A stretch of DNA of 64,000 nt from Raillietiella orientalis (lineage: Eukaryota), in assembly GCA_036172245.1 (NCBI GenBank), contig JAYWIR010000025.1, positions 2,356,001 through 2,420,000 on the forward strand. The letters run 5' to 3'. The position numbers and the translations under genes were made by a program. Shown piece by piece: positions 4,460-47,600 of this stretch (positions are counted from its first letter, which is position 1; the number at the start of each line of letters is the position of its first letter). The notes under the pieces are model-generated. The model ran no database searches. It had not been told where the DNA came from and was given only the letters and a program-made list of their open reading frames with translations.

Positions 4460-6500
4460 CGAAACTATCCGGGAACAGAGTTCCCGGACAAAGGACACAG
4501 AAAAACGAAGGGAGGGCTCCCCGACACGCAGGTCCTTAAAACCGAAAGTCCGGAACGGGAGGGAGGAGACCACAAATACATATTTAAAAAAATATAAATA
4601 AAAATATGGGGAGGGTAGGGACAGGGGTCTTTGGTTTTGGCCGTTCCTTCCTTTCAGAACCGGCGTTGGATGCTGTAGATCTCCTTCCTTACACCTTCTG
4701 GAAGATGAGGCCACCTTGAAGCCGACGTCATGTTCTCGTCGGCTATTCCGGTGGCCTCTCCACGAATCGCCTGCGACTCCAGCTGTAGGTGGGCCTTGTC
4801 GATGGTGCGAATGCAACAGACCGTTGCAACAACCGCACCCAAGGAAAGGCCGCCTGGCGTGAAGAAGCGGCGCATCAAATCCCTTGCGGTGTCCCCCTGG
4901 TGCAAGAGAGCTGAAGTCAGACTGTGCCACCGTCCTTGGAAGACACCGCAGTCGAAAAGCAGGTGCGGGAGCGTTTCTGCTTCTCCGCACCTTTTGCAGT
5001 TCGGGTAGGCAACTCCCCCGGAAACAATGTTCGAGAGCTGGTTGCAATGAAAGCCCCAATGCACCAGCAAGATTGCGTCCTGTTTCCACGAAAGGGGGAA
5101 CACAGAAGTGTAGTGTGAAATAGTGTCCACGCGCGAGGGAAGGACCACTAGATCTTCGGGGGGCACACTAAGCAGTTCGCTCCACCGGAAGAGTGCCTTC
5201 GGGATGTTGCGAGGCGGCGTCTGCCAGCTCGCTAGTCCTCCAGCCGCCCATGAGTCGGGTTGCTCCTGCGATCGTTCAGGCGACCTCCCACCTTCCCGGT
5301 AGGCAACTGTCATCACTTGCCCTTAGTGCAAACAGCGCTGCGGCAAGGGGCGTGGCGGCCAGACTGACTCACTCGCCCTGGTCTTGCATCAAATCCTCCA
5401 ATGGAAGGGGAAAGGTGCACGCAACGAAGTTCGATTAGCGGTACTTCCCGATGCACTTCCTGCCTCCAGGCGTTAAAGTTCGTTGGGTGGCAGGAGATCC
5501 AAGTGTGGGCTAGGAGCCGGCAAAGCGGTTTCAAGGGGAAACCGATGCTTCTCGTGGCGCACTCCGTATGCGGCAGGAGCGACAGAAGTCCTTCGCTGAC
5601 GGTGCAGCGCCGCAGTAGCAGGCGCGCGGGAGCACACCACGGAGTGAACTAGAAGTTGGCGCAAAGAGCCAACATCCGAAACTGCACCTGCAGTTCGATA
5701 CTCTCCAACGTCAGGATGCCTAAACCGGCATCCCGACGCGGAGCTGCCAAGTCTTGGAGGCACATCCTGGACCTCGCGGGTCCCCACAAAGCGTTCCTCA
5801 ACAGGCGTCTCGCCTGGAGCTTGGTCGAGTAGGGGGGCGAGCAAACAAAAAACAGGGGGCAGAAGAGGGGGAGACGAAGGTGTTCCAAACGGAGACCTGC
5901 TCCGGCAGGACCAGCCTGCCAGCTTGGAACGGGCCCAGAGCACTCTCAGCCTTCTGAAGGCAGTCCGACCATGCTTCCACTGGACTGATGCTCCCAGCGG
6001 GACGCCTGGGTGCTTCAAAGACCTGGCGGTCGGGATCCCGAGGCGGACTGCTCCCCCACGCCGCACCAACAGGGACGACTACACTCTTGCTCCGGTTTAC
6101 GCTCACGCCCGCTCCCCGGAGAATCAGCTCGAGGAAACCCTCGAGACTGGACACCGGGGTGGTCATGGGTAAAAGGAGAAGCAGGTCATCGGCATAGGCC
6201 TCCATGGACGGCGCACCTGGACAAGAGCTCGGCAGGTTGTCCAGTTACAGCCTGTACGCTCTCAACACCAACTCAAAGAAGATGCTGAAGAGCAGAGGGT
6301 TTAAACTGTCTCCCTGCCTCTGCCCCGCCGCACCGGCACGCCGTACACGTGGCAGCCGCTGAAACAGATGGAGGTGAGCGCGTGGCGCTAGCATGCGCGC
6401 AAACCCAGCTTTCGTTGGCTGCTGGTGGTGGGTGAACAATCCAACGCTTGGCGAGTTCTTCAGCAACGACAGGAAGAGTCGATATTGAAGGATTAAAAAG
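4460..6500 (-). mobile_element. Degenerate Tx1/L1-clade non-LTR retrotransposon: ORF2 (RT plus C-terminal zinc knuckle) and 3' UTR
   Basis: Minus-strand RT motifs RQGDSLNPLLF (~6310) and EAYADDLLLLL (~6190), GLGILTL (~5720), and C-terminal CKRCGEAETLPHLLFDC (~4950-5000). Many frameshifts. No endonuclease domain found. Confidence 0.85.
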
Positions 6501-8300
6501 CGATGCCACTGTGAACTCTTAACCGGCACAAGTCAGTTATCCTTGCGGTGACTTTCCTGACACCTCTTCGTAGTGTAGCTGGCTCTCCAGGTGTGATGGT
6601 GCTCGTTGCTGGAAACCCTTTTAAGTATCGCGTCGTCCTGAACTTCACAAATTCGGTGCAGAAAGTTATCTGTTCTCTCCTTACTGGCACTTTCTTTCAC
6701 GTCCTTGTCAAGTTGTGGTATTTCTCTTCTGCATTCTTGGATCTGCTGCATCTTCTCGCTTGCCACGCCGGTTCCTGACACCTTTTGTGAGCCTGACTGC
6801 TCTGCATGCTTCTTTGTCCTCTTGTTCCTGGTTTTCCTCTTTTGCCTCAGAGAATGGTCGCTGTCTCCGCAGCGGGGGGGTCTTCCTTCCCTCCGCTTCC
6901 AGCAACATCCTTTTCAGGGATGAGAGGAGTTCTCTGTAAGACTACCCACTACTTCCTTCAGTCTCGCTTGTTGTAGTCTACAGATGTAAAACTTCTTCGG
7001 TTAGGTGCATGAGTGCAGCAAGCGCCCCTGCCGGCCACACCGGTAACACCTCTTTCTGGATTTCGTTTTCTGCCCTGAGCGCAAGCACTGCAGAACGCAA
7101 GCTGGCACCTGTGCCCCAATGTGGATATTGGCCACCCCTGGTTATCGTGGCCTCGTCCTTTAGGATCCCTCTCCTGGAAAGTCCCTCTGCATGCTGTTCC
7201 GCAGTTCCACATGTTTGACTCCCATATGTTGTGAGAAGAATTGCCAGATGACTCTGTCTCGTGACGCAGTGGATCCCGGCCAGGAACACCGACGTCTTAA
7301 GGATTGCGCACAGTACTCGTCCAATGCGGCTAATTCCCTGCTACATGAGCGCTTCCATAAGCTGCCGAAGTCAAAGACGAGTCGGACACCATCATGGGAG
7401 AGTTTCTCTGTTGCAGATTCGTCTCATGAGTTTTCCGACAAGGTAAAGAGTGAGAGAGAGAGAAAAAACCATCGCCTGCAATTCTACAAATCATTTCATT
7501 CTGAATGATATGATTTGTCATTAAATCTTTAGTTCTAGTAAAATTAATATTTAATCAACATTTGTTTTTGTTTCTTCGGGATCAAAAGAGAACAAGGTGA
7601 CTTGCACTTTTCCAGAGAGTTCATCCAGTTCGATCAGATTGGGGATCATGGTTCCTTTTTCCATTCCAATTTTCATAAGGGTCTGTCCCCCGGAACGTCC
7701 ACCACAAAGGTACAGAGCGACTTCCCGTATGGCTGGAAGTGTCTCGTGATGGTGAGCTTTTTTGTCCTGACTTCGAGGTCGGCCAGACGTACAGTCGGCG
7801 CGGCCTTCTCAGATATTCCGTAGAGAATCCTCTCGTTGAAGAGCAGTCCGTTTTCGACGAGATCGTCGATCCCCGTTCGTGCTGTCTGTGTAAATGGAGG
7901 ATCCCACAGACGTCATGGCTGCCTTGGTGCGATCGGAATTCATCCTTTTCCGGTTGATGGCAAGGTATGTGTCGCTCACCGCACTGCTGGTTAAAAGACC
8001 CATGGGAAAAGTGACTGCGGTCACTTCCAGACCAAGTTCCCCGAGGGGCCGTCTTCGTTTTCGACCAGAGGTCCGGCGATCATGCCGTTTCCTGTGGTTT
8101 CTCCAGCGGGTCCGGTAAGCAAGGTCGCTGCCACCATTGTGTAGGACAACGCGAATGCCCTGGCATGGCAGTTACAGCCGCCTCGGTCTCCGCCGGTAGT
8201 TGCTGCCTCAACGACTCCACATTCCATTTCGGCTGTTGGAACTGCTTGCGCCACTTGTGGTCCACACGCCGCATTCAATACAAGACTAGAAGGCAATTGG
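6500..8300 (-). mobile_element. Degenerate ORF1 (gag-like, CCHC knuckle) remnants of the Tx1/L1-like element
   Basis: Minus-strand CYRCGRQGRLLHSC (degenerate CX2CX4HX4C) at ~7007-7048 and a basic low-complexity tail. Further GC-rich decayed coding sequence at 7600-8300. Confidence 0.6.
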
Positions 8301-10973: not shown

Positions 10974-13900
10974 TCATATCAATGCTGGAAGGTAAAACTG
11001 CTGGGCAAATTCTTCTACTTTGTGTCTTAAGCATTCTACTTTTTCAGACAAATGACTCTCTTTCATCTTTGTACAAAAATCAACGAATTTGACTCCTGAT
11101 TCACTCTGAATTTCCTTTGCAAGTTGCAAGGCTGTTAATAACAAACTCAGTTAAAAAAAATTTTTAATCATTGAAAAAACCTAACCTTGTGAAATAAAAG
11201 AAGCGACTATTTTCATATCTTCTTCATTTAGTCCTCGTGTTGTCAAAGCAGGTGTTCCTAGGCGGATGCCACCTGGATTAAAGGCACTCTTGTCTCCTGG
11301 CACTGCAGTACTATTGTTCCAAGAATCCAGTATGAAATTTTTAGTCGCACCTGTATTTTTATTGCAGGCTATCGATATCTCTTCAAGAATTTTCTCAGCT
11401 TTGGCACCAGAAACACCATAAGGACGAAGATCAAGCCAAACTAAATGATTGTCTGTACCCCCTGTGACAAGTTTAAAACCCATATTCATTAATTCTTCAC
11501 TTAGCACCTTAGCATTAGAAACTATCTGAAAGAGACAAGAGTCAGAAAAATTATTTGAGAAAGTTTTTCTAAACAAAACCTGATGTCCATATTTTTTAAA
11601 GTCTGGTGTAGCAGCTTGTTTCAAAGCAACAGCAACAGCAGCAATAGCATTATTATGTGGCCCACCTTGCAGTCCCGGGAAAACAGCTTGATTAATGAGT
11701 GACTCAAGCTCATATGGTTTTCCTGTGCGATCACATATCCCTATAAATACACTTACTTCAAATTCGAAAATACATTCTCACTGTAATAAATTACAACAAA
11801 ATCTCATTTGACATGAATACCACTTGATAATGCAGATGAAAAAAAGCTTTTACTCTTAATTCCTTTCCGGATTTGTACAAATTTTGTGCAAAACTAGCAC
11901 ATTTTCTGATAACAAAAGCATTTATTCCCTTTAATTAATTTTTCATTAGCATTCATTTTATCTTGGGGCTTACTACAACAATGTTGCTGAGCTTGCCTGA
12001 AAAACAAATAGACAAACCTGAAGAGCACTTGTAAGGATTTAAGATGCCTATGAACTAGGGAAGTATTACTCGGAAATTTTTTTTAAGTGAAGTTTTCTCA
12101 CAAACCTTAGTTTCCTACAAAAAATTGCATAATAAAAGATTTTAAAAGTACTCAACTCAACACAGGGCAGACAACACAACTAAGTATGAATAAAGTAAAT
12201 ACAGACTTGGAGGTACAATGTCAATGTATAATAGTTATCAGTGACAGCAAACAAGAGAAATCAGAAAGAAAAGGATACGAAAAGGTATAAAAAAGCTCTT
12301 GTTTACAAACACATTTGCTTTCACAATTCAGAATAGTGTTCATATAAAAGTTGATTCCTAGCTCACTGTGTGAGCCACAAGTAAACAATAAGAAACACAA
12401 TTTTGAATATGGTTCTTACAAAGGTTCTAAAATCTTGGATGAGTCAATTCCATTTCATTCATAATTAACGTGATTTTCATTGAAAGACTATAGACATAAC
12501 TGTTCGTACAACCACACCTTTGCGAAAAAAAATCATTGCTGCTCTTGGTCCACGTAAACTTTTGTGTGTTGTTGTGGTGACAACATGTGCATGGTGAAAT
12601 GGAGATGGTGCTGCTCCAGCAGCTACTAATCCTGATACGTGTGCCATATCTGCCATCAAATAAGCTCCACAAGAATCTGCAATCTGACGGAAACGTGCAT
12701 AGTCCAAATTCCGTGGATAGCAGCTAACTCCTATTAGAATGTGAATGGATTTTCTTTTGCAATCTTACTAGCCTGCAATAATAACATTAGGAAGAAACAA
12801 CTTAGAATTCCGTGACAGCTGCTCATAATCAATCATTCCAGTCTGGATATCGATTTTATAAGGCATGGATTCAAAGAACACTGATGTGGCTGATACTTTC
12901 TTTTTGGCAGTCATAAATCCATGAGTCAAGTGTCCTCCATCAGGGAGGTCTAGCCCTACAAGCCGATAAAGTCAAAAATCAAAGAAAAATTACCCATTAT
13001 TCTTCCATGTGGTTTTGCCAAAGCAGTATAAACAGCAAAATTTGCAGGACTGCCTGAATAAGGTTGAACATTCACTCCCCAATTTTCAGGATCAAGAGAG
13101 AAAAGTTCTAATGCTCTATTCTGGCACAAAATTTCCATTTGATCAATGAACTGATTTCCGCCATAAAATCTTCATAAAAAGAACCATTTGCATTAGTCCA
13201 GTAAATTGCATAATACAAACATTCACAGAAAATAGTTTTTCAAAGTGTGATTGCCTAGCTATAAACAAACAAAATTGGTGTAACTGGTGTTTGAGCTCTT
13301 AAAACCAATTCAAATGCTACAACGTCAAAATGCATTATGTCTGTAACATCGCCTGTATCTTCTTATATCGTAATGACTTCTAATGCTCTCTATTATTTAA
13401 CTTTCCATTAAAGTATGTTAACTTCTCCCTGCCACGAAAGTAACAGAAATAATTTGAGATTGGTTATTAATTCACTAATCTTTTCAATTATTAAAATAAT
13501 CCATTATATTTATTTAATGGTTAAGGAAAATGCTATTCTGATAATTTCCTACTGACATGTTCCACTTTTCAATCTGGATGATTTCACATATCACAATTTA
13601 GAAACACATTTTGAATATTCAACTCTTTACTCCCTTTTATTAAACGAAATTTCGTCATTGCAGTGAAATTTTGTAGTCAATAATCTTTCTGCTGAGAATT
13701 TACGGGTTTGTGCCCGTATCCCCACTTCAACATGCACTTTGATCATTGTTTTTCAAAATTCTACTGAATCTTCCAAATTTTAGTGAACACTAGTAGCTGT
13801 CACCAAATCAAAGAATCCAATCTGTTCCACCTTCGAACGTGACAGATTGAGTTGTGTCAATATTTTCATGGTGAACATTGAAATTCACAATTGCTTTTAT

Positions 13901-15925
13901 TTTGCATATAATAATTTGACCTGAGAATTCAAAACCATATGCTCAACAATGAAAATCTTCGTATTTGGTAAGTTTCCACATGTAAAATCAGAATTTATTT
14001 TGTGTGTGTTATTCTTCCTTTTCGAACAACCCTAAAAGATATTTTACATAGCACTTTCAATCCAAAAGTCGATTTTCTTTGAAACATCATTTCGGAATAG
14101 TTTTTAGCTCACAGAAAATCTCATCGATCATTCTTTTTCCATCATAGAAATGTTCATCACATCAGATCACTACCAAATGATTATTAATTATATTATCATA
14201 GCTTTACCTTTTTATTTTATGGTCCAATGCACTATTTGTAATCAGCAGTCACCAATAATGTGTTCCTGCTGAGAGATAAATTAAAAAAAAATTATACATT
14301 TCACATTTAAACTTTGCTTATTGGATACGCTATCTTCGAATCTTGCAGCTGGTCACTGTCAGATATCTTCAAGCATAAGGGCAAAACTCGTTTTTAAATA
14401 TAATAAGCCTTTAGCATGTATTGCATTTTTTTGCTTTTGTTTATGTTGCATATTTTCCTGAATGTACAGCTAAACAAGTTCCTGTTAAAGCTTGGAGTAT
14501 CTCTGCATAGAGACATACATGAAACATGCATGAACTTTTTTCATGAAAATAGTGCTGCATTCACTTGTTTTCACAATAATAAAAGGTGAAAAAACTAAAT
14601 ACATCACTAACTTACATATTTTGCTAAATCCATTTTAAATGACATTCCCTTAATAGATTCCATGCAAATATATGCTTCATATATTGCATTGGAAGACTTG
14701 AGTTCATAAAAATAAGAATGAAATGAAAACAAATGTTAGGCACCTATTAAATGCTATGCAACACAGATAATAATGACACACCCTATTGCATTAAGAAAAT
14801 GAATACGATGTTCAATAAAAACAAAAAATGTATTGATGAGCACAAACTTTTTTTTTTTTTAACAGAAAAAAGAGATTAAAGACTTGAAAAACACTTATCA
14901 GTACCAGAGAGCTTTCCATCAAAAAAAAACTAATAATGATACTGCAGCAAGATTAGTTTATTACGACTAATATAAAGTTATTATAGCTAATATCACCTTA
15001 GCAGCCTAGATTAAGAAAAACCAGTTATGCAAGTGTTTAATGTCAATTTAGTAATGGAAACGAAAATGTGTAAAGAAAAAAACGACATCTCTTACTAATC
15101 AACAGACTATCATGTTTCAAATCATTTGAAACTGGAGTAAAATCAATTAATTTTCTATTAAATGTGACCTTTATGTCCTGAAAGAAGCTACAAAAAACAT
15201 AAAACAGAGATATTTTACATTTTTAAAATATTGATTTCATGGATAAAATCAACAGTTTTAAGATGTAATTCATTTATGTACAATCACAGATTCACTTTGT
15301 TACTTCAAAAGTCCTTTCTACAATGTATAGCAGACTGAATGAATTACAGACTCATAATATCCTGTCAAATACTAATTGTAATCTATGTTTTTAGGTACAC
15401 AAACTGAACAGTGTTCCTTTATCTTCTTTCAAACGATAGTTTACAAATGAATTAATGGTAATTTGTAGCTAAAACTATAGCAATTCAAAATACCATAAAG
15501 CTATTAAGTTTACCACATTGAGTAGGATACTTTGACATGAACATAGAGTAGAGAATGCTATTTCTGGAAAAAAAAAAAAAAATGAACAAAACAAAAGGGC
15601 TGTTTATGTAATTTTCCACACTAATGTTAGGAAATGAATTTGAAACAAATATTGGCAAACTACAAAAACTTTGATTTACCGAGCACCAGGTAATCCTTCT
15701 GAGTACTTATTATGCAAACAACAGCCAAGAGTTTCCAATACTGCCACAGAAGTAAAATTTTCTGATGCAATCATCTCCAAGCCAACCTTTTGTCTCTCCT
15801 TTTCATTTTGAATGATAGAGAAAACCTACAAACAAACATAACCATTATTGTATCACAAAAAAATTACTTTACTGCATTACTTCTTTATCTGAGCTTTCTA
15901 AACTGGACTGCAATAACTCGTTCAT
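10974..15925 (-). CDS. SHMT: Serine hydroxymethyltransferase, 9 coding exons: 15881-15925, 15680-15825, 12994-13169, 12773-12955, 12518-12730, 11580-11740, 11351-11525, 11186-11302, 10974-11131
   Basis: Spliced translation gives [51 protein letters not shown], the PLP-lysine motif [25 protein letters not shown] and [13 protein letters not shown]. Introns are GT-AG except one GC-AG, and phases are consistent. Confidence 0.95.
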
Positions 15926-17359: not shown

Positions 17360-20300
17360 GGTCCTGTAATCCGGGATTCCGGAAGTGGCCAACATCAACG
17401 CTACTGCCAGGACGTCCTAATCAAGAACAGGTAACAGCCTGTGTTCTGATTAGGGTACGAGATGTTCGGGCACCGCGTGAGGGCTTGCCCAAGGGCACGG
17501 TGTTACCAGTGCGGCCAGCAGTGTCATTTTCTGAAGGCGTGTAACTAGCCGATGCTGTGTTACTTCTGTCGCTTGTCTGGACTTGCTAAAAAGGAGTGCC
17601 AGAGGTACGCGAACTGGAGGGAGGTGCAGGGGCTGTTGCCCATTCGGGAAGCGCCCGCGACAAAGGAGAAGCAGGCTCTTTTGAATGAGGAGACTGCCAC
17701 GATGGCAGCGCAGTTCACTGAGGTCAAGAGGAGGAAATGGAAGAGAAGAATGAGGCAGCAAGCCTAACAAGTCTCCGAAGAGCCAGCAAGAGTTGCCGTG
17801 TTGAGCGAGGAGTTGGAGCAAGTAGCGCAAACTGAAGAAGAGCTCGAAAAGTAGAGCAAAAAGTGCGATCAGTGGAGGAACTGCAAGACTCCCTTGAGCA
17901 CATCTGCGGCGTGGCGGTCTCAATCAACCAGCGCGTCCCCAATGGGCGCCACAGCTTCCCGCAGGGAATCGCTCTCGCTTGCTTCCTTGTGCACACTCTG
18001 TGAAGAGGCGACGACTCGGAGGGACCCCCCAACAGGAGGAGTCCGCTCCTTTGAACAACTGGAGAGGTGCCCGTAAGGGCTCCTGCTCCATCTTGAAACC
18101 GGAGGCGGTCCCCCGGTGACGGGGGTCCACTCTATGTTGCACACCGGAGGGGGAACTCCCCATTCCTTTATGCCTGGGAGGATCCGAAGGTCGACTCCCA
18201 TTGTTCCGGCCATCATCTGGAGGCCTCCGGCTTTATCCACCGCCGGGGCCACGCCCGAATGTCTCGGCCAACCAGTGCCGTTGCAGGAGAAACTCTGAAC
18301 CCAAACGACGCAGTGGCGTTAAGTTATCTGCCGAAGTATTCGAACCCGCGATGCATGGTGCCACGCGCGGAAGCCTTAACCACAAAGCCTCCGAGGCGTC
18401 CCCAATGAAGAACAACGGTTTGCTATGGAGGACAGACTGCTTGAAATCATAAAGAGTCAAGCGTGGAGTCCACGGGGTTGTCCTCCGCAACCTACAGTGA
18501 GCATCCAGACACTGATAGCAGCGACTACATCGAGTCCTAAAGCAACGTGGGTGACGAGAAAACCGGGAAGAGGAAGCTGATACAGTCTCCTAAGAAAAAG
18601 AAAAGCAAGAAGTGCGAGTACTCGAATCCCCGATGGCCACCTTCCTATCGACGGCCAGGAGCAGAAAGATCGCCTTCTGGATTGTTAACGGGTTGTGGAA
18701 CCAAGAGAAACGAGCCTGGCTTTTACGCAGAACATCGAACCTGATCACATAGTGTGCCTACAGGAAACCCACGATCTCGGTTACCAAGCCATCCTAGAGC
18801 TCGAGCGACTACTAGACGTCCAGCTGTTCCTGTTCGCGGGCCAGAAGAGAACCAAAGATGTGGCGATCCTCGTCAAGAACAACATCGCGCACACCGTCCT
18901 GGAGTCCTTTTCGTGGCCCGGCCGCATCGTCGGCGTTCGGATTCCCTGGTTCGGAAGCGCCCACCTGTTTCTGGTGAAAGTATACGGGCCGCATAGCGGC
19001 AAACAAGAAGCCATTGGGGCTCTGCTGTGAAACAAGGTCACGGCAAAGAACATTGTGATGGTCGTGGGAGAACGGAGCATGTAGGATCGCATCACCCAGT
19101 CCAAGGATGCTAGGGGAAGAACGGCCTATCAGCGGCTGTCCGAAGAGTACGGGCTGCTGTGGCCCATGGCGAGCCACAAGCCAATAGACTACGTCCTCCA
19201 CAGCCAGGACATCGCGAATTATGTGCAAGGCTTCCGGGACATCCCATTATTGCTCTCGGACCACCCCCTGACACAGTTCACGCCGCGAATGGAGAATCCT
19301 CGGAGGAAGGCAGGTGCAAGGGCTGCGCTCATCTGCATGCCCACCTGGTTCGAGACGCATCCCTTTCACCAGGAGCTCATCGAGGCGATTCTGCAGAACG
19401 CCACCATCCGCAGAGTTGCCGACAAGGACAGGTTGAAGCGGACGATTTATTTGTTCAGCAACCTGCAGTTCGGCGACAGGAAGATGAGAATGGAAGCTTA
19501 CCGGGAGCTCAACATCCACGACCATTCCTTCTCGAGGTACTGGCAGTAGTACGAGAGCCGGTAAGTTTTCAAGAACGTGAAAGGGGAAGTCGGTGTGCTG
19601 GAGAAAGACATCGCCACCAATGTCTTCTGCATCCAGTACGAAGATCAATTTTGGCACACGTCGGAAGGAATCGCGGAGGTTTTCCATCAACACTACGCCT
19701 CACACTTCTGACGTCAAGATCTGTGCCTGACTGAACAGGAGAACATCTTGCGCACCTGTATAAAACATTAAACATGGAGCAACAAGAAAGACTTCAAGAG
19801 GAAATCTCCGCCGAAGAAGTGAAGGGTGTTCGCGGGACTGCTCAAGCATGTGGAGGATGGTATACCGCCGATAGTGTTCCCATCTCGCACTATCAGCGGT
19901 ATCTGCACGCCTACCTGCGGTTGTTCCACGAGCTGGCTCTTCGCATCCAAGAAGAAGGAAGGCTCTCTCCATCGTTCCACGAGGGTAGGATGAGACTGCA
20001 GCCGAAGGAAGGAGACCTGATGAAGGTCACCTAATGGTGGTCCATCTCCATCCTGAACACGGATGCCAAGTGGTTGGTGAAGATTTGGACCAACTGCTTG
20101 AGCAAGACGATGCCATCAGTCGTTTCTCCGACACAGACGTGCGCGATGCCCGGACGCAGCATGTCGGCGAACGTGAAGTGTGCCCAGGCCACCATCGTTT
20201 ACTGCCGATACGTCGGCGAAAACCTGGTGCTGGATACAATCACCACACGCAACGTAAACCAAGTCTTACTTACAGTGAATTACCAAGAGCACGCAGAATG

Positions 20301-22680
20301 CCTTACGCACTTTTTTTTAATTGGTGCATCACCTTTTGCAACTTTACCGAAGACGACCTGAAAGATATCAAAGACTGGTGCAGATGCAACTGCTTCTTCG
20401 CATGCATAGGAAAAGAAACTTCAAGCACTGGCACGCCACACCTTCAGGGATATATGCAACTAAAGGAACCACGCACATTACCTGCCTTGAAGCGCACACC
20501 CTTCCAGAAGTGCCACCTAAAAAAAGCACGCGGTTCACCACGGAGCAACCTACGGTACTGCACAAAAGAAGATAAACAAGCATGGACATATGGAGCTATC
20601 CAAGAAATTAACGAACCAGCTACATACCAGGACCTGGTAAGCCAAAAATAATTAACAAGATCAAAAACCATGTCTCCACTAGATACTTCAACTCATAAAA
20701 GATGGCGCCGACGAACTCTTCATACTCAACAACCACACAACGTTTTATTCCAAAAACATCAATTTTGTAAAAGAATGCTTCCGCCTTACACGAAGCAGAG
20801 CACACCCCAACCGCCTCGCCAAACTTCAACTCAAGTCATGGCAAATGGACCTACTTAAAATCATACGCCTAAAACCTGAACTCAGAAAGATATACTGGTA
20901 CCATGACCCAGTAGGAGGCACAGGCAAAACAACCATGGCCAAATTCCTCTACTTGAAAAAGGGTGCCATATGCATGCACTCGTGTAAGAAGGCAGACGCG
21001 GTCCACATCTAATGTTCACTGGAGAAAACCTTTGACACCATGGACCACGGGATGCTCCTGAAGATCTTGCGGAAATTGGGCTTCCCAAGACACTTCATCC
21101 ACCTTGGGGACGCCTCCGCAGCACAAATGTTGTGGAAGGAAATTCTGGGGAAAATTAAAGAAGAGGCCATCAAGTACATTCGGGTCGACTTCAACATGAG
21201 GCGGAGGGCCACCTTGTGGAATAACGTTCTACTTCCCAAGGTGCTTTACGGAGCCACCTTCGGCAGAATCGACAAGAAGACGCAGGAGGAAATCGAAAAA
21301 CTGTAAAGGAAGATTTTTTGGAGAGAATTTAAGCCGAGGGTCAGGCTCGTACCATTGTGCCACCCTTGAGAGGAAGGTGGGACCGGAATGAAGCCGTTTG
21401 AACACCTTGTGGAAACCATAGACTGGCGGCAACTTTTGCATCTCACCGTGAAATGGGACCAGTGGCCTTTCTCAGAGCATAGAGCCTACTGGAAGCTGCT
21501 GAACAACTCGAAAGGTCTGATGTCTGCCCTGATGGGCTCCACTTGAGAGTGGGTGAAAGTCGATCTCACTTGGAAAAGGAAACAAGCACTAGTGAAGCAT
21601 CACCAATTCAAGATGGTGCCTAGGAGCAAAGAAATCTGGGATGAAGAACTGACCCTGGTGATACCCTACTTTGTCCCCGTTCCGAGGAAGACTTCCATGT
21701 AGATACACCAGAGGCAAAGATTGAGAATGTAGCATTGTGAGCAGTTCGTCAACAGAGGGAATCGCCACCAAGTGTGACAGCACGGACTACGTCGAGCCCG
21801 AAGCAACGTGGATGTTTCGCTTTAATAGAGAAATGAAAGGAAAGTTTCAGTTATAAAATCCGGGAGTTTTAAAAACATCTGTCACATCAAGAGGGCTTCT
21901 GATGACCAAGGCCAACATAAAAGAAGGAACATTGAAGAAATGTCAAGACGTCGCCGCCCTCGGAGCAGCTTCGAGCCGATATGGATGTTCACATGCAAAT
22001 ATGCAGATGGTTGGAAATGCACTTTGGAGGAGTGACCTTCCCCCGGACATGCAGGACGAGCTCTTATTGTTCTATCACAGAAGGATCCTGAGTGGTTCCT
22101 GACTTCAACACTGGACCGGGAAAATCCAAGACGGAGACTGCAAGGCGTGGAGCAGAAGAAACGCAGCTCTTCATATTCACTTGTCCCACGCTATGACTTG
22201 ATTAGCAGACGGTGAAGGCAATGACAGGCCTGCAGACAAGCAAATCGGAAATTATGGCGGGCTTGTTTCAGGGAAACGGAAACGCACCCCTGTGTAACCC
22301 GATGGTTCGAACGACGCTTGCCCTCTTCATCACAGCAATCGTGATAAGAAGGGCAAAGATTCCCACACCTCGAAGAGGAACAACTGCTTTAGAAATCTCG
22401 AAAGGACTCGTGCAGAAAAAGTTAGGAATGAGGAACTGTGGGAGGATCGCCGCCTGAACATAGCGTTACATGCTGAGGAAGATTGACGACTACGTTTAGG
22501 CAAAAAGAACAATCCTCTGAGCCCAAACTTCAAAAGATGCAGAAGTGTTAAAGTGAAAGTGACGTGAAGTGAGCAATGCAAAAACAGTGCAGTTGTTAGC
22601 AATGAAAACATTGAAAGGACTGAAAAGACTTGAAGTTTTTTGTTAAAAGTTAAAAGTATGCTTTAATAAATTCATCCCAC
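17360..22680 (+). mobile_element. Near full-length but decayed Tx1/L1-clade non-LTR retrotransposon (ORF1 knuckles, APE endonuclease, partial RT, C-terminal knuckle), interrupted by a viral Rep insertion
   Basis: ORF1 CYQCGQQCHFLKAC and CYFCRLSGLAKKEC (~17500-17600). APE motifs IVCLQETH, VAILVK, VYGP, IDYVL, SDH (18690-19265). RT N-terminal SISILNTDAK...QTCAMPGRSM (20040-20165), resuming as EKTFDTMDH...LGFP (21020-21090). C-terminal Cys/His remnant at ~22140 and AATAAA at ~22665. Confidence 0.88.
20298..21012 (+). CDS. rep: Endogenous CRESS-DNA virus Rep (copy A), spliced join(20298-20636, 20683-21012), 222 aa, open but truncated after Walker A
   Basis: HUH motif I WCITFCN, motif II TPHLQGY, motif III YCTK. 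Removing the 46-nt GTAAGC...CACTAG intron keeps the frame open through LKSWQ...RKIYWYHDPVGGTGKTTMAK (SF3 Walker A) to a TAA at the junction with the LINE. Confidence 0.9.
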
Positions 22681-29996: not shown

Positions 29997-30025
29997 GCAC
30001 GACACTTGTATGACAAGTGTCGTGC
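29997..30025 (+). promoter_or_regulatory. Putative degenerate rolling-circle origin stem-loop of the endogenous CRESS virus
   Basis: GCACGACACTT-gtatgac-AAGTGTCGTGC is a perfect 11-bp stem. TTGTATGAC matches the TAGTATTAC nonanucleotide at 7/9 positions and ends exactly at the 3' stem arm. Confidence 0.55.
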
Positions 30026-30059
30026 TTCCAGTAATTGCTTCCAGTTTTTTAGTTTATTA

Positions 30060-30800
30060 ATTCTTTTCTTTCCTTGTTTGACGTCCATGTCCTTTGACAT
30101 CTACAATCTTGGCCACCTCTAAAGTCATCCGTTCTCTGTCCTACCGGCCTCACGAAAAACCGTAGACTCTTTACTCCGAAACATCTTCTCCAGCTTCCAC
30201 GATTTTCGTCATAAAACTCCAACGCTTCCGTTATATTTTCATAAGTCTTTCCCTAATAAAAAGAGTACAACAATTCCGTCACCCAAGGGGCATCGGATGC
30301 AATCAAATTCCTAAATGATACCTTGAAACCTATGGTTGCGGTCCTGCCCCAACGACACCACTCCAGACCAACCCAGCCTCAGAGGTTCTATCTTGGATCT
30401 TACTCCCACGAGCTTCGCCTCATAAAAAAAAAACTTGCTCATCTCTTCCAGATTGCAATTCAAAACTGACGTCTTCAGCGGGTCTATAAAACTCTGTTCT
30501 ATGTGCATCCAACTGCACTGGTACGCTCCCCTTGTGGCAAAAACGTACACTGGCATACCTATACGCCTTTACTATCTGATCCCTTTCCACAGTCCTTACT
30601 AAACCGTATTTCCAATTAAACTTATTCCTAAAAACGCGATGACCGCTCCTTCGTCTTCTATCTACATACTTCCGGTACGACCTCACGCTGATCGTCTTTC
30701 GACGTTTTCCACCTCCGCCTGTCACCCTTTTCCGGGAGCGAACCGCCGTAGCCTCCTGCCCTCGGTAGACTTGACTACTACCTGCTGGCTACAGTCGATC
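30060..30800 (-). pseudogene. cap: Putative CRESS-DNA virus capsid protein gene (frameshifted)
   Basis: Arg/Lys-rich N-terminal arm (RSRKRVTGGGGKRRKTISVRSYRKYVDRRRRSGHRVFRNKF), as is typical of ssDNA virus capsids. Oriented divergently from rep, with minus-strand AATAAA at ~30053-30058. Confidence 0.65.
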
Positions 30801-31111
30801 CATTACCATTATCTTAAACCATTCTCGATCCCTCCCCCTCCCTCCCGTTTATCCTTTCACGTTCCACAGATTATCATTACAGTCCTTCACATCTGCTTCT
30901 GCGCAGTCTACACATTCTTTCACACTTTCTGCCCAGCAAAGCACTTATACGGTACGGACATCCGCTCCTTATCACTGCTGCTGATCACGCAGACTGTTTC
31001 ACCAAACAGAATTCCCTGGAAAGAAACGCGCGTGGCTCTGCCAGATGGGTAACACTCCCTATAGATACTCTTTCACTCACCGCGTTTTCCAGACCACTAC
31101 TTGCAATTATC

Positions 31112-32053
31112 ATGCCTTACGCTGCTTACACAAATTGGTGCTTTACTGTGAATACTCGGATTCTGAAACCATCAAAACCTGGGCTAGAGGACGTCCGTCC
31201 TTCATCATCGCCGCAAAAGAGGAAACAGAAGCTACCGGCACGCCTCACCTCCAAGGCTATATGCAATTGCATGAACCTTTCCCGTTGCTGCTACTGCAAA
31301 GACCGCCTTTTGCAAGAGCTCACCTCGGGCACGCTAAAGGCTCCGCAGAATCTAACTTGGCATCTTGCAGGAAGCAAGATCCACATCCCTGGACATTCGG
31401 ATCACTCGACACAAACCCTACAGAAGATAATCACGAGAAACACGTAAGCTCTCTTTTCACATTTCCTTTATTTTCCTTCAGATACTTCAACTCATACAAT
31501 CCGGAAAGTCGGGGCAGTTTGTATTTGAAAACCATACGCGCTTTTATGCGCGTAACGTACACTTTATCAAGGAGTCTTTTGGCCTCTACAGAGCTAAGCA
31601 CCCCTAACCCAATGCAAAACCTCCGTCTTCGAGAATAGCAGCTTGAGATTCTCGATCGTAGAGCAGCCAAACCTCCACATCCCAGAGAAATTTACTGGGT
31701 CAAAGAAGAACGGGGGAACGGGGGCAAAACCTTTGCCAAATAGCTTTTCATCAAAAGGAATGCCATCTACCTACAAAGCTGTAAAAAGGACGATGATGCA
31801 CATCCGTACAACGGGGAACGCATCATCATCGTTGACTTCACCAGAGATGCCGGGGAGATAGTTCAGTACGGTTTCATCGAGTCTCAAAAATGGTATCGTT
31901 TTTGACCCAAAGTACCAAGTCAGCATAAAATACTTCCACATTCCTCACGTCGTAGTAATGGCCAATTGGAAACCATCAGAAATTGTTTTAAAATGCTACT
32001 ATTTACTATTTCACCATGATAGAACTTGGGATATCCGCTTTCTTGGAAAATAA
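31112..32053 (+). pseudogene. rep: Endogenous CRESS-DNA virus Rep (copy B), full length, with intron 31444-31481 and several frameshifts and stops
   Basis: MPYAAYTNWCFTVN (motif I), TGTPHLQGYMQL (II), motif III with the Tyr lost (ASCRK), REIYWVKEERGNGGKT (Walker A), IIIVDFTR (Walker B), KNGIVFDPKY, PHVVVMAN (motif C), DRTW. Stop at 32051-32053 followed by AATAAA. The helicase half resembles nanovirus/alphasatellite-type Reps. Confidence 0.9.
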
Positions 32054-32151: not shown

Positions 32152-33119
32152 TTATTGTTCCAAATCTTGTTGAAATACACAAACAGATGGGCGTAGTTTA
32201 CATTCATCTAATTCAAGATCGTCTAAACTTTGAAACAGTGACTCATCTACTTCAATTTCACCACCCTCTAAAATGTCAATAAGATGCATATTCAAGGGTT
32301 TGGTTGCAATTACGAAAGCCAAATTAGACATACCAAAATCCTCCAAAAACTTAAGATCTGAATTATCTAACTGATGGTTTTGAAGAAAGAGTTGTTTTCC
32401 AGTCATTTTTTTAGCAGAGTTGCTATCTTTATGTGTTTTATTTTCTGCTAATCTTTCTAGATCAAACTGTAGTTTCCATTTATTGAAAGACTCAATAGTA
32501 ACTCTTGTGCCTTCAAAATGCTTCTACAAAATTACTAATGCAACCAACATTTATGTACAGGGAACCTTTTCTGCCTCATCCAATTCCTCACGGCGTTTAA
32601 CTTCCAGTAATTCAAGATCCAAGATCTTTTTTTCATACAAGTCATTTAAAAATTCTTGGGCAGCTGCTACCAAAGTATAGATCATGACTGTCCCTACATT
32701 ATCATGAGCCTAAGTATTAAAGCAAGCCAGCTTAATTAATGTTCTTAAATTAACAAACATTAATGGAAAAAAGATTTCAAACCTGGTTATGAAGGCAGCT
32801 CAAAATATGCTCGGCATCTTCATCATTAATGTTTTCCGATTTGAAAATTTCAATTCTGGGTGGCTTATCAGGGTATTCTTCATTGAATTCAAATGATAGC
32901 ACCAAAGAAAGCCTCTCTATTTGTGTGTTCTGGTTAAATTCTGAGCTAAACAGGGTTATTTTAAATTGATGCCAAGGATTTACATTACTAACTAAAATTT
33001 GAAATGGCTCTGTAGCAAAAGTATGACTGATATTCAAAAATATTACTTTCTAATTCTTGTGAATATATTGCTTGCAAAGCTTCAATTTCATTCAATTGTT
33101 CTTCTTTGTAATTAACCAT
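32152..33119 (-). CDS. RWDD1: RWD domain-containing protein 1; exons 33047-33119, 32783-32991, 32566-32709, 32334-32523, 32152-32267
   Basis: MVNYKEEQLNEIEALQAIY, EEYPDKPP, GTVMIYTLVAAAQEFL, FEGTRVTIESFNKWKLQFD, MTGKQLF, EVDESLFQSLDDLELDE. GT-AG introns. The extreme C-terminus and the exon-2 acceptor are uncertain. Confidence 0.92.
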
Positions 33120-44661: not shown

Positions 44662-47600
44662 TCATTGAGAAAGGATGTTTCTAATACCAGTGAAATCTTG
44701 CAGGCAATATTTCAACCAATGTTGATAGCGCACAGCTTGACTGAACAGCTGAGATAACGAATTCTGCTTTAAAATCTCTTCAACCTTCTTTAGTTCATCT
44801 TGAACTAGTTGTTCTTTGGTTCCATCTTCGAATTTTGGACGCTTATTAAAAATACAAACACCATTCTTTGATGAACTTTGACAAAGTCTTAACTGAGTGA
44901 AAACAAATCGGCGATGATACCACAGAGCTTCATGGTCTGGAAATTGCTGTAACAGTTTATAATTGCAATCCAATTCTTCATCATATAAGCTGACTGCATT
45001 TTCACTTTGCTGTGCCATTAATTTCAATAGGTACTGCCGATACCGTAAAGCACTGTGATCTGATACTTGCTGACAAATCCAAATGTTGGATTGGTTTAAT
45101 TCTTCTTCATACATATGCTTACAAGCGTTCTGTTGCAATAGCCACTGGCGATGGGACCAAGCAGCATAATTATTAGGATATCTTCTGGCAGCAAGAGTGC
45201 AGATATCAAGTTCTTGTTTCAGTGTTTCCTTGCGAGATAACAGTAGAAGTGCATAATGACTCCAAACCCATCTAGAAATCAACTCACTAGTAATAATTTT
45301 GACAACAATCATTACCTCTTTTGACAATATGGCTGAGTGGCTTTAGGGTTCCTAGTTAATACAAGATCAGTAAGGTGTAATTCCCAGAAAGGATTAATGT
45401 GACCATCCAAAAGCATCTCCTTATGAATATTCCAAACTGTGCTGATCTCTGGATTGAGTAAAATAAGAATAGTTGTCATGTGTTGCAATTGTTCCGGATC
45501 TGCAGTTGGAAATAGGAGATGAAAAACAAAAATGAAAACAAAAATCTGAGATATTTTAAAACAAAACTACATGAAAGTCTTCAGAAAATGATCCTCTAAT
45601 CATCTCTACATACTCTACATAATTAGCACACATACACAAGTTTAGTAGCATTATCCGTTCATTTTTTTCATTGCATTCTCCGGTTATAAACATTAGAACT
45701 GATAGAATTGTGAGCACATGAGCAGAAAACAGTCACAACCAGCATTACAGATATAGATATACAAGAAACTACAAAAACAATGCATAATGAACAAGATCTG
45801 AATTAAGATACAGTATTTCAATTACTGCTTTCCAGAATATTGGGTCCCAATAACTTTTAATGAGGGCTTTTGAATCAACAAGTTTCACGGATCTGAAGTT
45901 AAGACTGATTAGTGATGTGTTGTGTGAAAGAAATTTGGTACAATATCACCTCTTCAAAGAACTTTTGCATTAATTCTAAGATTTGATATCCATTAATGCT
46001 TATCAACCTTTCTATCTTAGCCCATTTCTTTGTTCAAAAGTAATTTCAGCTTTCCATTAAGTCATTTAAATATTCAGTTTTTGCACTTTGTTATTTCTGT
46101 AGAACTACTTTTAAATTTTCATAGACCTGCCTTTACTCGGATATTTTTCCAATTAAATGCATTCATAGATTTACTTAATGACAACATAGCATCATAAATA
46201 TGGGTGGACATTCACCCATAGTAAATAAGGGATTGGTTTTCTTCACTTTTTGGCATGGATTATCATTAAAACAACTGTATTTTTACCATCTGTACTTTGA
46301 ACATATCCTTTCTTAGGAAGAAATCCATAAGCAAAGAGAAGCCTTGTTTGTTTGTTTTGTTCATTTTCGCAATTCGAAAGTACTTATTTATCCGGATTCC
46401 ATCGTGCATTACTTTTTCTCACACTTTTAATTGGTGTGAATAAGTTGAATTCACATGCATGCATGTGAATTATGACTGAAACAAATGACTAAATTTCCAA
46501 AGCTTTCATTTCCACGAACTTTTTATGAGTTGGCATTTCTTAATGTACAAATCTTAGCATTTGTAATTTTCATTTGAAAATTTCCATTAAAGAAACATTC
46601 TTTTTGTGAATTCCTTTCGGAAGCATTTGAAAAATTTTGGCACAGAATGAATTACATTGGTCATGTACCTTATTCAGGAGTGTTTAATGCATGGAAATAT
46701 TTAGATATAGTAGTAACTTTCGAATAGTACGTTCTTAATGTACAATGCAATAAATGTGGGACAATTTAGAATCTTGTGACTTCATGCATGGTTTTAGCAA
46801 TGCAGGTCCCTAAGGAGAATATCATTGGGAAATTATCGCTTATGTATTATATTTTCGGATAGAGGCAACAATTAATGTCCACTTCATCAACTTTGATAAA
46901 TAACCCTTTGTAAGTACTCAAGTATCAATTGTCGTGCTATGATCAATTTTCATGGGAAAAAATAAAATGTAGTGTACCAATACATTTGTTTGAGCTGAAA
47001 TGCAGACAGGAGCTTTCAGTACATAATACTTTCCGTAACAATGATTCCTTTATTGTTCTTGTGTTTGTTTTTTAAACAGTTATGAATGGTACTTATCACT
47101 CATATCCTTTTCCTTATTTTTCATGAGAAAATAAATTTGATGAAATTTCTCTTTTCCCCTTTAAAAGATCATCATCTGAGAAACGAGGTATCAAACTATC
47201 TTAATCAAAGCTCGGTTTGGATTCATAGTTTTCATCTTTATGAATATTATCTGTTATTGTGTGCAGTTATTGCAATCAGTAATTCAGGAGTGATACTAAC
47301 TATTAAATAGTCCGAAATCATCATACTTATTTGGGAGAAACATATCTGAAACATTACCAGAATTCTCATAACAATGTAATAAAAGCATTAGCAATGAAAG
47401 AATTTATTCTATGGCTTTCAAAGACAATTTCTGTATGCTAGAAGTTTTGACAAAATGATCATGACTTTATATTTTGACTGACCTACCCCACTTCCCTTCT
47501 CTTCTTAGATGCATAGTCAGTTTGTATGCATACAGAAATACAAGTTCCACACACCAAGATTCTAATGCCAATTTGTTGTCAACATGAACAACTGGACTTC

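What the first reader, a model, noticed from the sequence alone, without database searches (positions are those of the whole stretch)
20637..20682. Conserved spliceosomal mini-intron in the Rep genes of a possibly undescribed CRESS-DNA virus lineage
Seen: both divergent Reps carry a phase-0 intron at the same site. Copy A is CTG|GTAAGC...CACTAG|ATACTTCAACTCATA (46 nt) and copy B is CAC|GTAAGC...TTCCTTCAG|ATACTTCAACTCATA (31444-31481, 38 nt). The intron interiors are unrelated, while the spliced frames align (ILQLIKDGADELFILNNHTTFYSKNINFVKECF vs ILQLIQSGKSGQFVFENHTRFYARNVHFIKESF). Unspliced copy A stops inside the intron (20649-20651), giving an endonuclease-only protein. Known: mastreviruses and genomoviruses use splicing to make Rep and RepA, whereas nanovirus/alphasatellite-type Reps, which this helicase resembles, are normally unspliced. 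Inference: an animal-infecting ssDNA virus group with a Rep/RepA-like splice switch between nuclease and helicase, with intron size matching this host.
Basis: partly seen in the sequence, partly recalled or inferred. Interest (0 to 1): 0.88.

Follow-up and report, generated by a model that had tools for sequence, protein, structure and literature searches.

The report
Short intron in two fossil virus Rep genes
Two dead, chromosome-embedded copies of a small circular ssDNA virus replication gene both carry a tiny host-sized intron at the same codon, which most likely was part of the living virus; this is a new example of things already known rather than a new kind of biology.

Summary
Both Rep copies have a GTAAGC...AG gap at the same codon boundary: 20637-20682 (46 nt) in copy A and 31444-31481 (38 nt) in copy B. 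Removing the gap restores the frame in each. Copy A has no other defect over 113 + 109 codons. Related Reps run colinear through the junction with no extra residues.

Both copies are endogenous viral fragments in a eukaryotic, apparently animal, chromosome. Copy A is truncated and sits inside a LINE-like reverse-transcriptase frame. Copy B has at least three frameshifts and two stops.

The copies are about 50% identical in protein. Synonymous sites are saturated (pS 0.83, pN 0.34), so they diverged as working genes. The intron is therefore most likely ancestral to one viral lineage.

Five host introns in this window measure 38-66 nt, so the size match is real.

Not supported or untested:
- The nanovirus/alphasatellite assignment. 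The nuclease is closest to circovirus-type solved Reps, and the named relatives are unclassified Cressdnaviricota.
- The Rep/RepA-like switch, because no RNA data could be obtained.

Introns in CRESS Reps and CRESS endogenous elements are both already published. This is a new member of a known kind, of modest interest.

The parts
20298..20636 (+). Copy A, Rep exon 1: HUH endonuclease domain, 113 codons, intact (motifs CITFCNF, PHLQGY, YCTKE)
   Evidence: Pfam Viral_Rep E 4.9e-13; translation; matches solved circovirus-type Rep nuclease domains at E 3.5e-14
20637..20682 (+). Copy A putative intron: 46 nt, GTAAGC...CTAG, GC 0.33 against 0.45-0.46 in the exons; in-frame TAA at 20649-20651
   Evidence: homologues have no residues here
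20683..21012 (+). Copy A, Rep exon 2: linker helix (ILQLIKDG...) plus the start of the SF3 helicase with Walker A (GGTGKT), 109 codons open, then TAA. Rep homology ends here, so the gene is truncated
31114..31443 (+). Copy B, Rep exon 1, with a frameshift near 31155-31162; PHLQGY kept, motif III Y changed (SCRKQD)
   Evidence: (Viral_Rep E 4.6e-06)
31444..31481 (+). Copy B putative intron: 38 nt, GTAAGC...TTCCTTCAG, pyrimidine-rich, GC 0.34
31482..32050 (+). Copy B, Rep exon 2: linker plus the whole SF3 helicase (Walker A GNGGKT, IIIVDF, KNG..., PHVVVMAN). Broken by a 1-nt frameshift near 31600, TAG at 31636-31638 in place of the invariant W of WQ, TAG at 31741-31743, and a frameshift near 31880-31900
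19735..20232 (+). LINE-like reverse-transcriptase reading frame, left flank of copy A
   Evidence: Read from the sequence. Pfam RVT_1 is only marginal, E 0.16. Atlas gives weak leads only: 10 of 30 hits in clusters with RVT_1 on 13% of members. The motif reading is recalled
21013..21303 (+). LINE-like reverse-transcriptase frame resumes (CSLEKTFDTMDHG...), right flank of copy A
   Evidence: no Pfam hit; the motif reading is recalled
30420..30788 (-). Arg-rich ORF divergent from copy B Rep; possible remnant of a capsid N-terminal arm
   Evidence: Weak. tblastn E 0.006 in a 4.6-kb database against the putative Cap of IMG/VR contig L054. No Pfam hit even at E 10
29997..30045 (.). Perfect 13-bp hairpin (29997-30025) followed by 2 x TGCTTCCAGT, at the left edge of the GC-richer block that holds copy B; possibly an origin remnant
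   Evidence: z -7.0, 0 of 200 shuffles fold as well. No canonical nonanucleotide nearby

Best explanation
The window holds two endogenous fragments of circular Rep-encoding ssDNA (CRESS) viruses from one otherwise unsampled lineage.

In that lineage the rep gene was split by one short phase-0 spliceosomal intron. It lies between the HUH nuclease domain and the linker helix that precedes the SF3 helicase.

In the living virus the host spliceosome would remove 38-46 nt. That joins the two reading frames and makes full-length Rep. Unspliced RNA could encode only a nuclease-domain protein.

Both chromosomal copies are now dead. Copy A is a 5' fragment of about 780 nt lying inside a LINE-like element. 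Copy B is a near full-length rep, possibly with capsid and origin remnants, carrying several frameshifts and stops.

Shown: the anatomy, the frame logic, colinearity with homologues, divergence under selection, and the host intron sizes.

Inferred: that the gap was actually spliced, and that it was present in the virus rather than gained in the chromosome.
For: 1. Both copies have GTAAGC at the donor and AG at the acceptor, at the same codon boundary. Each lies 18 residues after the conserved WT(Y/F)G start, and each is followed by ILQLI.
2. The gap lengths, 46 and 38 nt, are not multiples of three. Removing them restores the frame in both copies.
3. Copy A has no other stop or frameshift in 113 + 109 codons, so its only defect sits exactly here.
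4. In the alignment of 19 relatives, those with a linker run straight from G.R.DL into the helix (e.g. RNDLEELRQAIREG against YQDL|ILQLIKDG). None has about 15 extra residues.
5. A and B are about 50% identical in protein, with pS 0.83 (saturated) and pN 0.34 over 164 codons. They therefore diverged while coding was under selection. The gap interiors are unalignable.
6. The gaps are AT-richer than the exons, GC 0.33-0.34 against 0.43-0.50.
7. Five host introns read from SHMT and an RWDD1-like gene in this window are 38-66 nt.
8. The 17 nt at the acceptor are identical with no synonymous change, the longest run in the alignment: 50 of 20000 shuffles.
9. Two exogenous IMG/VR contigs with this helicase type (L016, 71 nt; L086, 89 nt) have GT-AG gaps whose removal leaves an open Rep frame (L016) or one with only the terminal stop (L086). 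Introns in this inter-domain region therefore occur in free CRESS genomes.
10. Introns in Reps of geminiviruses, genomoviruses and some circoviruses are described in bioRxiv 10.1101/687855 (passages read). Predicted introns in cycloviruses, one of 56 nt, are in PMC8622408 (passages). Arthropod-associated CRESS genomes with introns are in PMC6186406 (passages).
Against: - There is no RNA evidence.
- Only two copies were available, both dead. They lie 10.8 kb apart on the same strand, which also fits an old tandem duplication.
- GTAAGC reads in frame as Val-Ser in both copies, so the donor could in principle be inherited coding sequence.
- None of the 97 IMG/VR relatives that show both Rep domains has a gap at this exact codon. 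These relatives are only about 30-40% identical.
- The spliced product is two residues shorter between DL and the helix glycine than the relatives that have the linker (my reading).
- Copy A's acceptor (CACTAG) has a poor pyrimidine tract.
Confidence: 0.72

Rival explanations
1. The intron was gained in the chromosome. A Rep gene captured and used by the host acquired a host-type mini-intron, then duplicated in tandem. The copies diverged under selection as host genes and later both decayed.
For: The two copies are 10.8 kb apart on the same strand. pN is below pS, which only shows selection, not where it acted. The intron size and AT-richness are host-like. No free virus with this intron was found.
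Against: Copy B lies in a block of about 1.95 kb, the size of a whole CRESS genome, with a divergent Arg-rich ORF and a hairpin with direct repeats. That looks like a viral genome rather than a gene duplicate, though the evidence is weak. Copy A is a fragment inside a LINE-like frame, not a tandem unit. Introns in CRESS Reps are documented, whereas I recall intron gain in captured genes as rare.
Confidence: 0.13
2. There is no intron. The segment is a hypervariable inter-domain linker in which both pseudogenes happened to collect indels and, in copy A, a stop.
For: Both copies are pseudogenes, and copy B has at least three other frameshifts. GTAAGC is in frame as Val-Ser. The region between nuclease and helicase varies in length among Reps.
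Against: Copy A would have its only two defects, a stop and a frameshift, inside 40 nt, while 666 nt of flanking coding sequence stay intact. Both copies would need frame-breaking changes bounded by the same GTAAGC and AG. The 17 nt right after the AG are perfectly conserved. No relative has extra residues here.
Confidence: 0.05
3. The full-length protein is made by recoding (programmed ribosomal frameshift or bypass) rather than splicing.
For: Two overlapping frames must be joined. Small viruses do use frameshifting (recalled).
Against: The shift needed differs between the copies, +1 in A and +2 in B. Copy A has a stop 12 nt past the junction. No slippery site is shared, because the interiors are unrelated. 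The boundaries are canonical GT-AG.
Confidence: 0.02

Closest known systems
Endogenous CRESS-DNA viral elements (circovirus-/nanovirus-like Rep insertions in animal and protist genomes; Liu et al. 2011, PMC3198968; Rosario et al. 2018, PMC6186406)
   Same: HUH nuclease plus SF3 helicase Rep sequences embedded among host genes and retroelements. They are degraded by stops and frameshifts and fall outside the established virus families.
   Different: The word 'intron' has 0 occurrences in PMC3198968. In the passages I read from PMC6186406, introns are mentioned for free genomes, not for endogenous copies. Here two diverged copies keep the same mini-intron.
Spliced Rep of mastre-, becurto-, capula- and grabloviruses and of genomoviruses (Rep/RepA)
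   Same: One intron separates an N-terminal nuclease part from the helicase part. Only spliced RNA gives full-length Rep.
   Different: The protein families differ: there is no Gemini_AL1 hit for the window's exon 1, and relative P0020 scores only E 0.1. Homology of the intron position could not be tested. The unspliced product here is a bare nuclease domain, 117 aa in copy A, and its tail is not conserved between the copies. No evidence exists that it is used.
Predicted or shown introns in Circoviridae Reps (porcine circovirus Rep/Rep'; putative cyclovirus introns, e.g. 56 nt in PMC8622408)
   Same: The nuclease domain is circovirus-like. The GT-AG introns are short and were predicted from broken frames.
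   Different: The helicase half of the relatives' profile (A3) does not match the solved circovirus Rep helicase; the match stops at profile position 150 of 301. No NAGTATTAC origin was found between the 5' ends. The positions of the circovirus introns were not compared here.
IMG/VR contigs L016 and L086 (unclassified CRESS genomes of 2.8 and 3.0 kb)
   Same: The same helicase type. A GT-AG gap lies between motif III and the linker helix, and its removal leaves an open Rep frame (L016) or one with only the terminal stop (L086).
   Different: L016 has a 71-nt phase-1 gap about 25 codons upstream of the window's site. L086 has an 89-nt phase-1 gap about 4 codons upstream. Neither is close kin of the window's copies: neither is among the 8 best-scoring loci for any window exon, and the best of those are 31-45% identical.

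Membership tests
Cressdnaviricota Rep (HUH endonuclease + SF3 helicase) | Rolling-circle motifs I, II (HxQ) and III (YxxK) in the N-terminal domain | tested here: met
   Copy A has CITFCNF, PHLQGY and YCTKE, with Pfam Viral_Rep at E 4.9e-13. Copy B has PHLQGY, but its motif III Tyr is replaced (SCRKQD).
Cressdnaviricota Rep (HUH endonuclease + SF3 helicase) | SF3 helicase with Walker A, Walker B and motif C downstream of the nuclease | tested here: met
   Walker A is GGTGKT in copy A and GNGGKT in copy B. Copy B also has IIIVDF and PHVVVMAN, read across its frameshifts. There were 652 hits at E <= 1e-3 to Rep-like proteins. Exon 2 alone has no Pfam hit.
Endogenous viral element | Viral sequence contiguous with host chromosomal genes, and non-functional | tested here: met
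   Host SHMT, DFRP_C and PPTA exons lie in the same window. Copy A is truncated. Copy B has at least three frameshifts and two stops.
Spliceosomal (GT-AG) intron | GT...AG boundaries whose removal restores one open frame | tested here: met
Spliceosomal (GT-AG) intron | No coding counterpart in intron-less homologues | tested here: met
   Alignment A3: the relatives that have the linker run colinear through the junction.
Spliceosomal (GT-AG) intron | Junction seen in RNA | not testable with these tools
   No sequencing run was listed for the window, and no genome is held.
Nanoviridae / Alphasatellitidae Rep | Nuclease and helicase closest to nanovirus or alphasatellite Reps; components of about 1 kb; TAGTATTAC origin | tested here: not met
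   The nuclease matches circovirus-type solved Reps at E 3.5e-14 to 4e-10, against 2e-4 and 3e-4 for the two chains I recall as nanovirus. No nanovirus name appears among the best 120 listed relatives. No TAGTATTAC within one mismatch lies near either copy. No named nanovirus helicase was available to compare, so the helicase part is untested.
Circoviridae | Circovirus-type helicase (Pfam RNA_helicase) and an NAGTATTAC stem-loop between the 5' ends of rep and cap | tested here: not met
   The profile of the relatives matches solved circovirus Rep only over positions 4-150, i.e. nuclease plus linker. No stable hairpin lies upstream of the copy B ATG (z -1.4). No nonanucleotide was found.
Mastrevirus/genomovirus Rep-RepA splicing | Gemini_AL1-type nuclease, an intron at the family's position, and a functional RepA from unspliced RNA | tested here: not met
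   No Gemini_AL1 hit for exon 1. The unspliced products are not conserved between A and B. Function is not testable here.

The most novel reading that the evidence does not exclude
An unsampled lineage of invertebrate ssDNA viruses uses a host-sized mini-intron as a real expression switch between a nuclease-only protein and full-length Rep. The perfectly conserved 17 nt at the acceptor would act as a splicing signal. Copy A, with about 65 nt of leader, exon 1, the retained intron and part of exon 2, sits seamlessly inside a LINE reverse-transcriptase frame on the same strand. It would then be a fossil of the unspliced viral mRNA, captured by LINE template switching, and so physical evidence that unspliced transcripts existed.
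Probability: 0.12. Interest if true: 0.6.

Novelty: new member of a known kind. Interest (0 to 1): 0.36.

Why it matters
If the intron is viral, it shows that this CRESS lineage replicated in nuclei whose spliceosome handles 40-nt introns. That ties an unclassified virus group to a host type by two independent lines, integration and intron architecture. It would also add another Rep lineage with an intron at the nuclease/helicase boundary. That bears on the published argument that intron-containing Reps arose once (bioRxiv 10.1101/687855). In practice, endogenous and metagenomic CRESS Reps that look frameshifted at this boundary should be checked for mini-introns before being called broken. 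It does not open a new mechanism.

Tried and rejected
- Whole-genome search for more copies: no genome is held for this window.
- Sequencing runs: none was listed and no RNA holder was listed, so no reads could be laid.
- Earlier findings of this scan: nothing by place, sequence or words.
- Close relatives:
  - Exon 2 gave no hit in the word-indexed protein search and none in IMG/VR.
  - Exon 1 gave only relatives of 35-43% identity.
  - P0020 found nothing in IMG/VR.
- Pattern GTAAGC, gap of 20-50, then the 17-mer:
  - 0 hits in viral contigs.
  - 2 hits in metagenome contigs (L006, L007). These are the same bacterial-looking sequence with no Rep, so they are chance.
- Cluster look-up of the best hits was switched off.
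- Capsid test: no Pfam hit for any minus-strand ORF upstream of copy B, even at E 10. The only hit is a weak Arg-rich match to a putative Cap, so I treat the capsid as a lead.
- Origin: no canonical nonanucleotide near either copy. The hairpin at 29997-30025 is strong but has a 3-nt loop.
- LINE identity of copy A's flanks: no paralogue in the window by DNA or protein. Pfam RVT_1 is only E 0.16. The Atlas gave weak leads only.
- Host phylum: Atlas rows name Chordata, Streptophyta and Platyhelminthes on a handful of members. I draw no conclusion beyond 'eukaryote, animal-like gene set'.
- Apparent split Reps in L003, L032, L047, L058 and L081 are overlaps at contig ends, not introns. L055 is a frameshift inside the helicase.
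- A family-level phylogeny was not built, because no named reference Reps could be fetched.
Full report
**What is there**

Copy A starts with ATG at 20298. It reads MPYALFFNWCITFCNF...PHLQGY...YCTKE...YQDL for 113 codons to 20636. Pfam calls this Viral_Rep at E 4.9e-13.

The next 46 nt (20637-20682) begin GTAAGC and end CTAG. In the exon-1 frame they give VSQK and then TAA at 20649-20651.

From 20683 a second frame is open for 109 codons: ILQLIKDGADELF...SWQMDLL...IYWYHDPVGGTGKTTMAKF...KKADAVHI. It ends with TAA at 21010-21012.

Copy B has the same layout:
- ATG at 31114, with a frameshift near 31155-31162.
- ...PHLQGY...EDNHEKH up to 31443.
- A 38-nt GTAAGC...TTCCTTCAG gap (31444-31481).
- ILQLIQSGKSGQF... 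from 31482.

Copy B continues through the whole helicase to about 32050. It is broken by:
- a 1-nt frameshift near 31600;
- TAG in place of the invariant Trp of the WQ motif (31636-31638);
- TAG at 31741-31743;
- another frameshift near 31880-31900.

A tblastn of the Rep pieces and 12 related proteins finds only these two copies in the window.

**Is the gap an intron?**

Several independent features say yes.
- Both gaps sit at the same codon boundary. Exon 1 ends 18 residues after the start of the conserved WT(Y/F)G in both copies, and exon 2 starts ILQLI in both.
- Both gaps are phase 0. Their lengths are 1 and 2 mod 3, so the downstream frame is reached only if they are removed.
- Copy A has no other defect in 222 codons. 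Under a 'decay' reading its only stop and its only frameshift would fall within 40 nt.
- I aligned exon 2 with 19 related Reps. Those that possess the linker pass straight from the G.R.DL motif into the amphipathic helix (RNDLEELRQAIREG, ADLEDVAALIKEG and so on), where copy A has YQDL|ILQLIKDG. None has room for about 15 extra residues. The spliced product is two residues shorter here than those relatives, which counts slightly against a perfect fit.
- The gap interiors do not align with each other, although the donor hexamer is identical. The 17 nt AGATACTTCAACTCATA at the acceptor are also identical, and they form the longest identical run in the 769-column alignment (next longest 11). This length is reached in 50 of 20000 column shuffles.
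- By contrast, the 11-residue PHLQGYMQL block, identical in protein, has several synonymous differences.
- The gaps are AT-richer (GC 0.33, 0.34) than the exons (0.43-0.50).

**Viral or host intron?**

Over 164 aligned codons the two copies are 50% identical in protein. pS is 0.83, beyond saturation, and pN is 0.34. Two sequences drifting apart as pseudogenes would show pN about equal to pS, and neither would keep long open frames. Most of the divergence therefore happened while the genes were working.

The simplest reading is two integrations of two related viruses that both already had the intron.

The alternative is a domesticated host gene that gained an intron and then duplicated. It is kept alive by one fact: the copies lie only 10.8 kb apart on the same strand.

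Against that alternative:
- Copy B lies in a GC-richer block of about 1.95 kb (30070-32000), the size of a whole CRESS genome.
- That block holds a divergent Arg-rich ORF (30420-30788, minus strand). It weakly resembles the N-terminal arm of the putative capsid of IMG/VR contig L054 (E 0.006 in a very small database).
- At the block's left edge is a perfect 13-bp hairpin followed by two TGCTTCCAGT repeats.

These are leads, not proof. Pfam finds no capsid, and there is no canonical nonanucleotide.

**Host context**

The window carries these host features on the minus strand:
- SHMT exons, 11181-15825;
- a DFRP_C/RWDD1-like exon, 32152-32523;
- a prenyltransferase-alpha repeat ORF, 44662-45342.

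It also carries a 28S rRNA fragment.

Reading SHMT and the RWDD1-like exon against their conserved protein sequence gives five short introns of 38, 42, 54, 48 and 66 nt, with GC 0.28-0.38. At least one intron is about 2.5 kb.

**What kind of Rep?**
- Exon 1 matches solved circovirus-type Rep nuclease domains at E 3.5e-14 to 4e-10. It matches the two chains I recall as nanovirus at 2e-4 and 3e-4 (virus names are recalled, the table gives only molecule names).
- A profile of the relatives matches the solved circovirus Rep only through the nuclease and linker (profile positions 4-150 of 301). The helicase is therefore of another type.
- In 1.84 billion representative proteins, exon 2 finds 652 hits at E <= 1e-3. 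Only one is below 1e-10 (36% identity). Exon 1 finds at most 45% identity.
- The relatives come from contigs of about 1-2.3 kb. The only source names among the best 120 listed are 'Cressdnaviricota sp.' and 'Hermit crab associated circular virus'.

The lineage is thus unclassified and distinct. I could not show it to be nanovirus- or alphasatellite-like, and I could not build a family-level tree.

**Introns in relatives**

A degenerate pattern for this helicase type pulled 122 IMG/VR stretches. With the five earlier loci, 127 were screened using HMMs for the two halves.

| Class | Loci |
|---|---|
| Both domains in one ORF | 89 |
| Split across two ORFs | 8 |
| Helicase only (mostly short loci) | 25 |
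| No helicase hit | 5 |

Of the 8 split loci:
- five are overlaps at contig ends;
- one is a frameshift inside the helicase (L055);
- two have clean GT-AG gaps whose removal leaves an open frame (L016) or one with only the terminal stop (L086): L016 (71 nt) and L086 (89 nt).

Both of those gaps lie between motif III and the linker helix, but at other codons and in phase 1. L016's is about 25 codons upstream of the window's site and L086's about 4 codons upstream. So inter-domain introns recur in this Rep type, and the window's position is its own.

**Literature**
- Intron-containing Reps are described for four geminivirus genera, genomoviruses and some circoviruses (bioRxiv 10.1101/687855; passages read).
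- Putative introns, one of 56 nt, are described for cycloviruses (PMC8622408; passages).
- Rep ORFs interrupted by introns are marked among arthropod-associated CRESS genomes (PMC6186406; passages).
- Endogenous CRESS elements across eukaryotes are described in PMC3198968, where the word 'intron' has 0 occurrences.
- My searches found no paper describing an endogenous CRESS Rep that retains an intron. This covers only the held library.

**Copy A's setting**

The flanks of copy A read as one LINE-like reverse-transcriptase frame on the same strand:
- left: ...ISILNTDAKWL...GRSMSANV...GENLVL, up to about 20232;
- right: CSLEKTFDTMDHG... from 21013.

Nothing obvious is missing between the two flanks. 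Support from tools is thin: RVT_1 at E 0.16 and weak Atlas leads. The motif reading is from recall.

If this reading is right, a Rep piece of about 780 nt was inserted cleanly into a LINE. The piece holds 65 nt of leader, exon 1, the intron and part of exon 2. It could have entered by end-joining of viral DNA, or by template switching onto an unspliced viral transcript. I cannot tell which.

**Verdict**

The intron reading is well supported short of RNA evidence. The elements are dead endogenous copies of an unclassified CRESS lineage. The splice-switch idea and the nanovirus affinity are not supported.

Spliced CRESS Reps and CRESS endogenous elements are both known, so this is a new member of known kinds, of modest interest.

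Noticed in passing
window 19735-20232 and 21013-21303 (+): The copy A Rep fragment lies inside what reads as a single LINE-like reverse-transcriptase frame on the same strand, with no obvious loss of LINE residues. This could be clean insertion of viral DNA or RT template switching onto viral RNA. Tool support for the RT call is marginal (RVT_1 E 0.16).
   Followed up: partly
window 29997-30045: A perfect 13-bp hairpin with a 3-nt loop (z -7.0), immediately followed by two TGCTTCCAGT repeats, at the left edge of the GC-richer block of about 1.95 kb that holds copy B. It may be an origin remnant or unrelated.
   Followed up: partly
window 30420-30788 (-): An Arg-rich ORF divergent from copy B rep. 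It gives a weak match (E 0.006, tiny database) to the N-terminal arm of the putative capsid of IMG/VR contig L054, and has no Pfam hit.
   Followed up: partly
window 6386-6541 (-): An isolated 156-nt fragment of eukaryotic 28S rRNA (model positions 2825-2984) inside a GC-rich, transposon-like block. A marginal zf-RVT hit lies nearby (4654-5322, minus strand), which suggests an rDNA-targeting retroelement remnant.
   Followed up: no
window 12731-12772 (-): One of the host SHMT mini-introns (42 nt) appears to need a GC-AG boundary to keep the conserved IIAG|VSCYPR reading.
   Followed up: no
L016 1871-1941 (+); L086 reverse-strand 1800-1888: Two IMG/VR CRESS contigs have predicted GT-AG introns (71 and 89 nt, phase 1) between the Rep nuclease and the linker. 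L016 also shows a textbook stem-loop with CAGTATTAC just upstream of rep.
   Followed up: partly
P0013 (354 aa): The best-scoring relative of exon 2 is a predicted protein holding two tandem, near-identical Rep helicase halves. It looks like a gene call across repeated Rep sequence, perhaps another endogenous array.
   Followed up: no
L006 / L007 3001-3059: The only metagenome matches to the donor-gap-acceptor pattern are one identical bacterial-looking sequence in two contigs, with no Rep. They are chance matches.
   Followed up: yes
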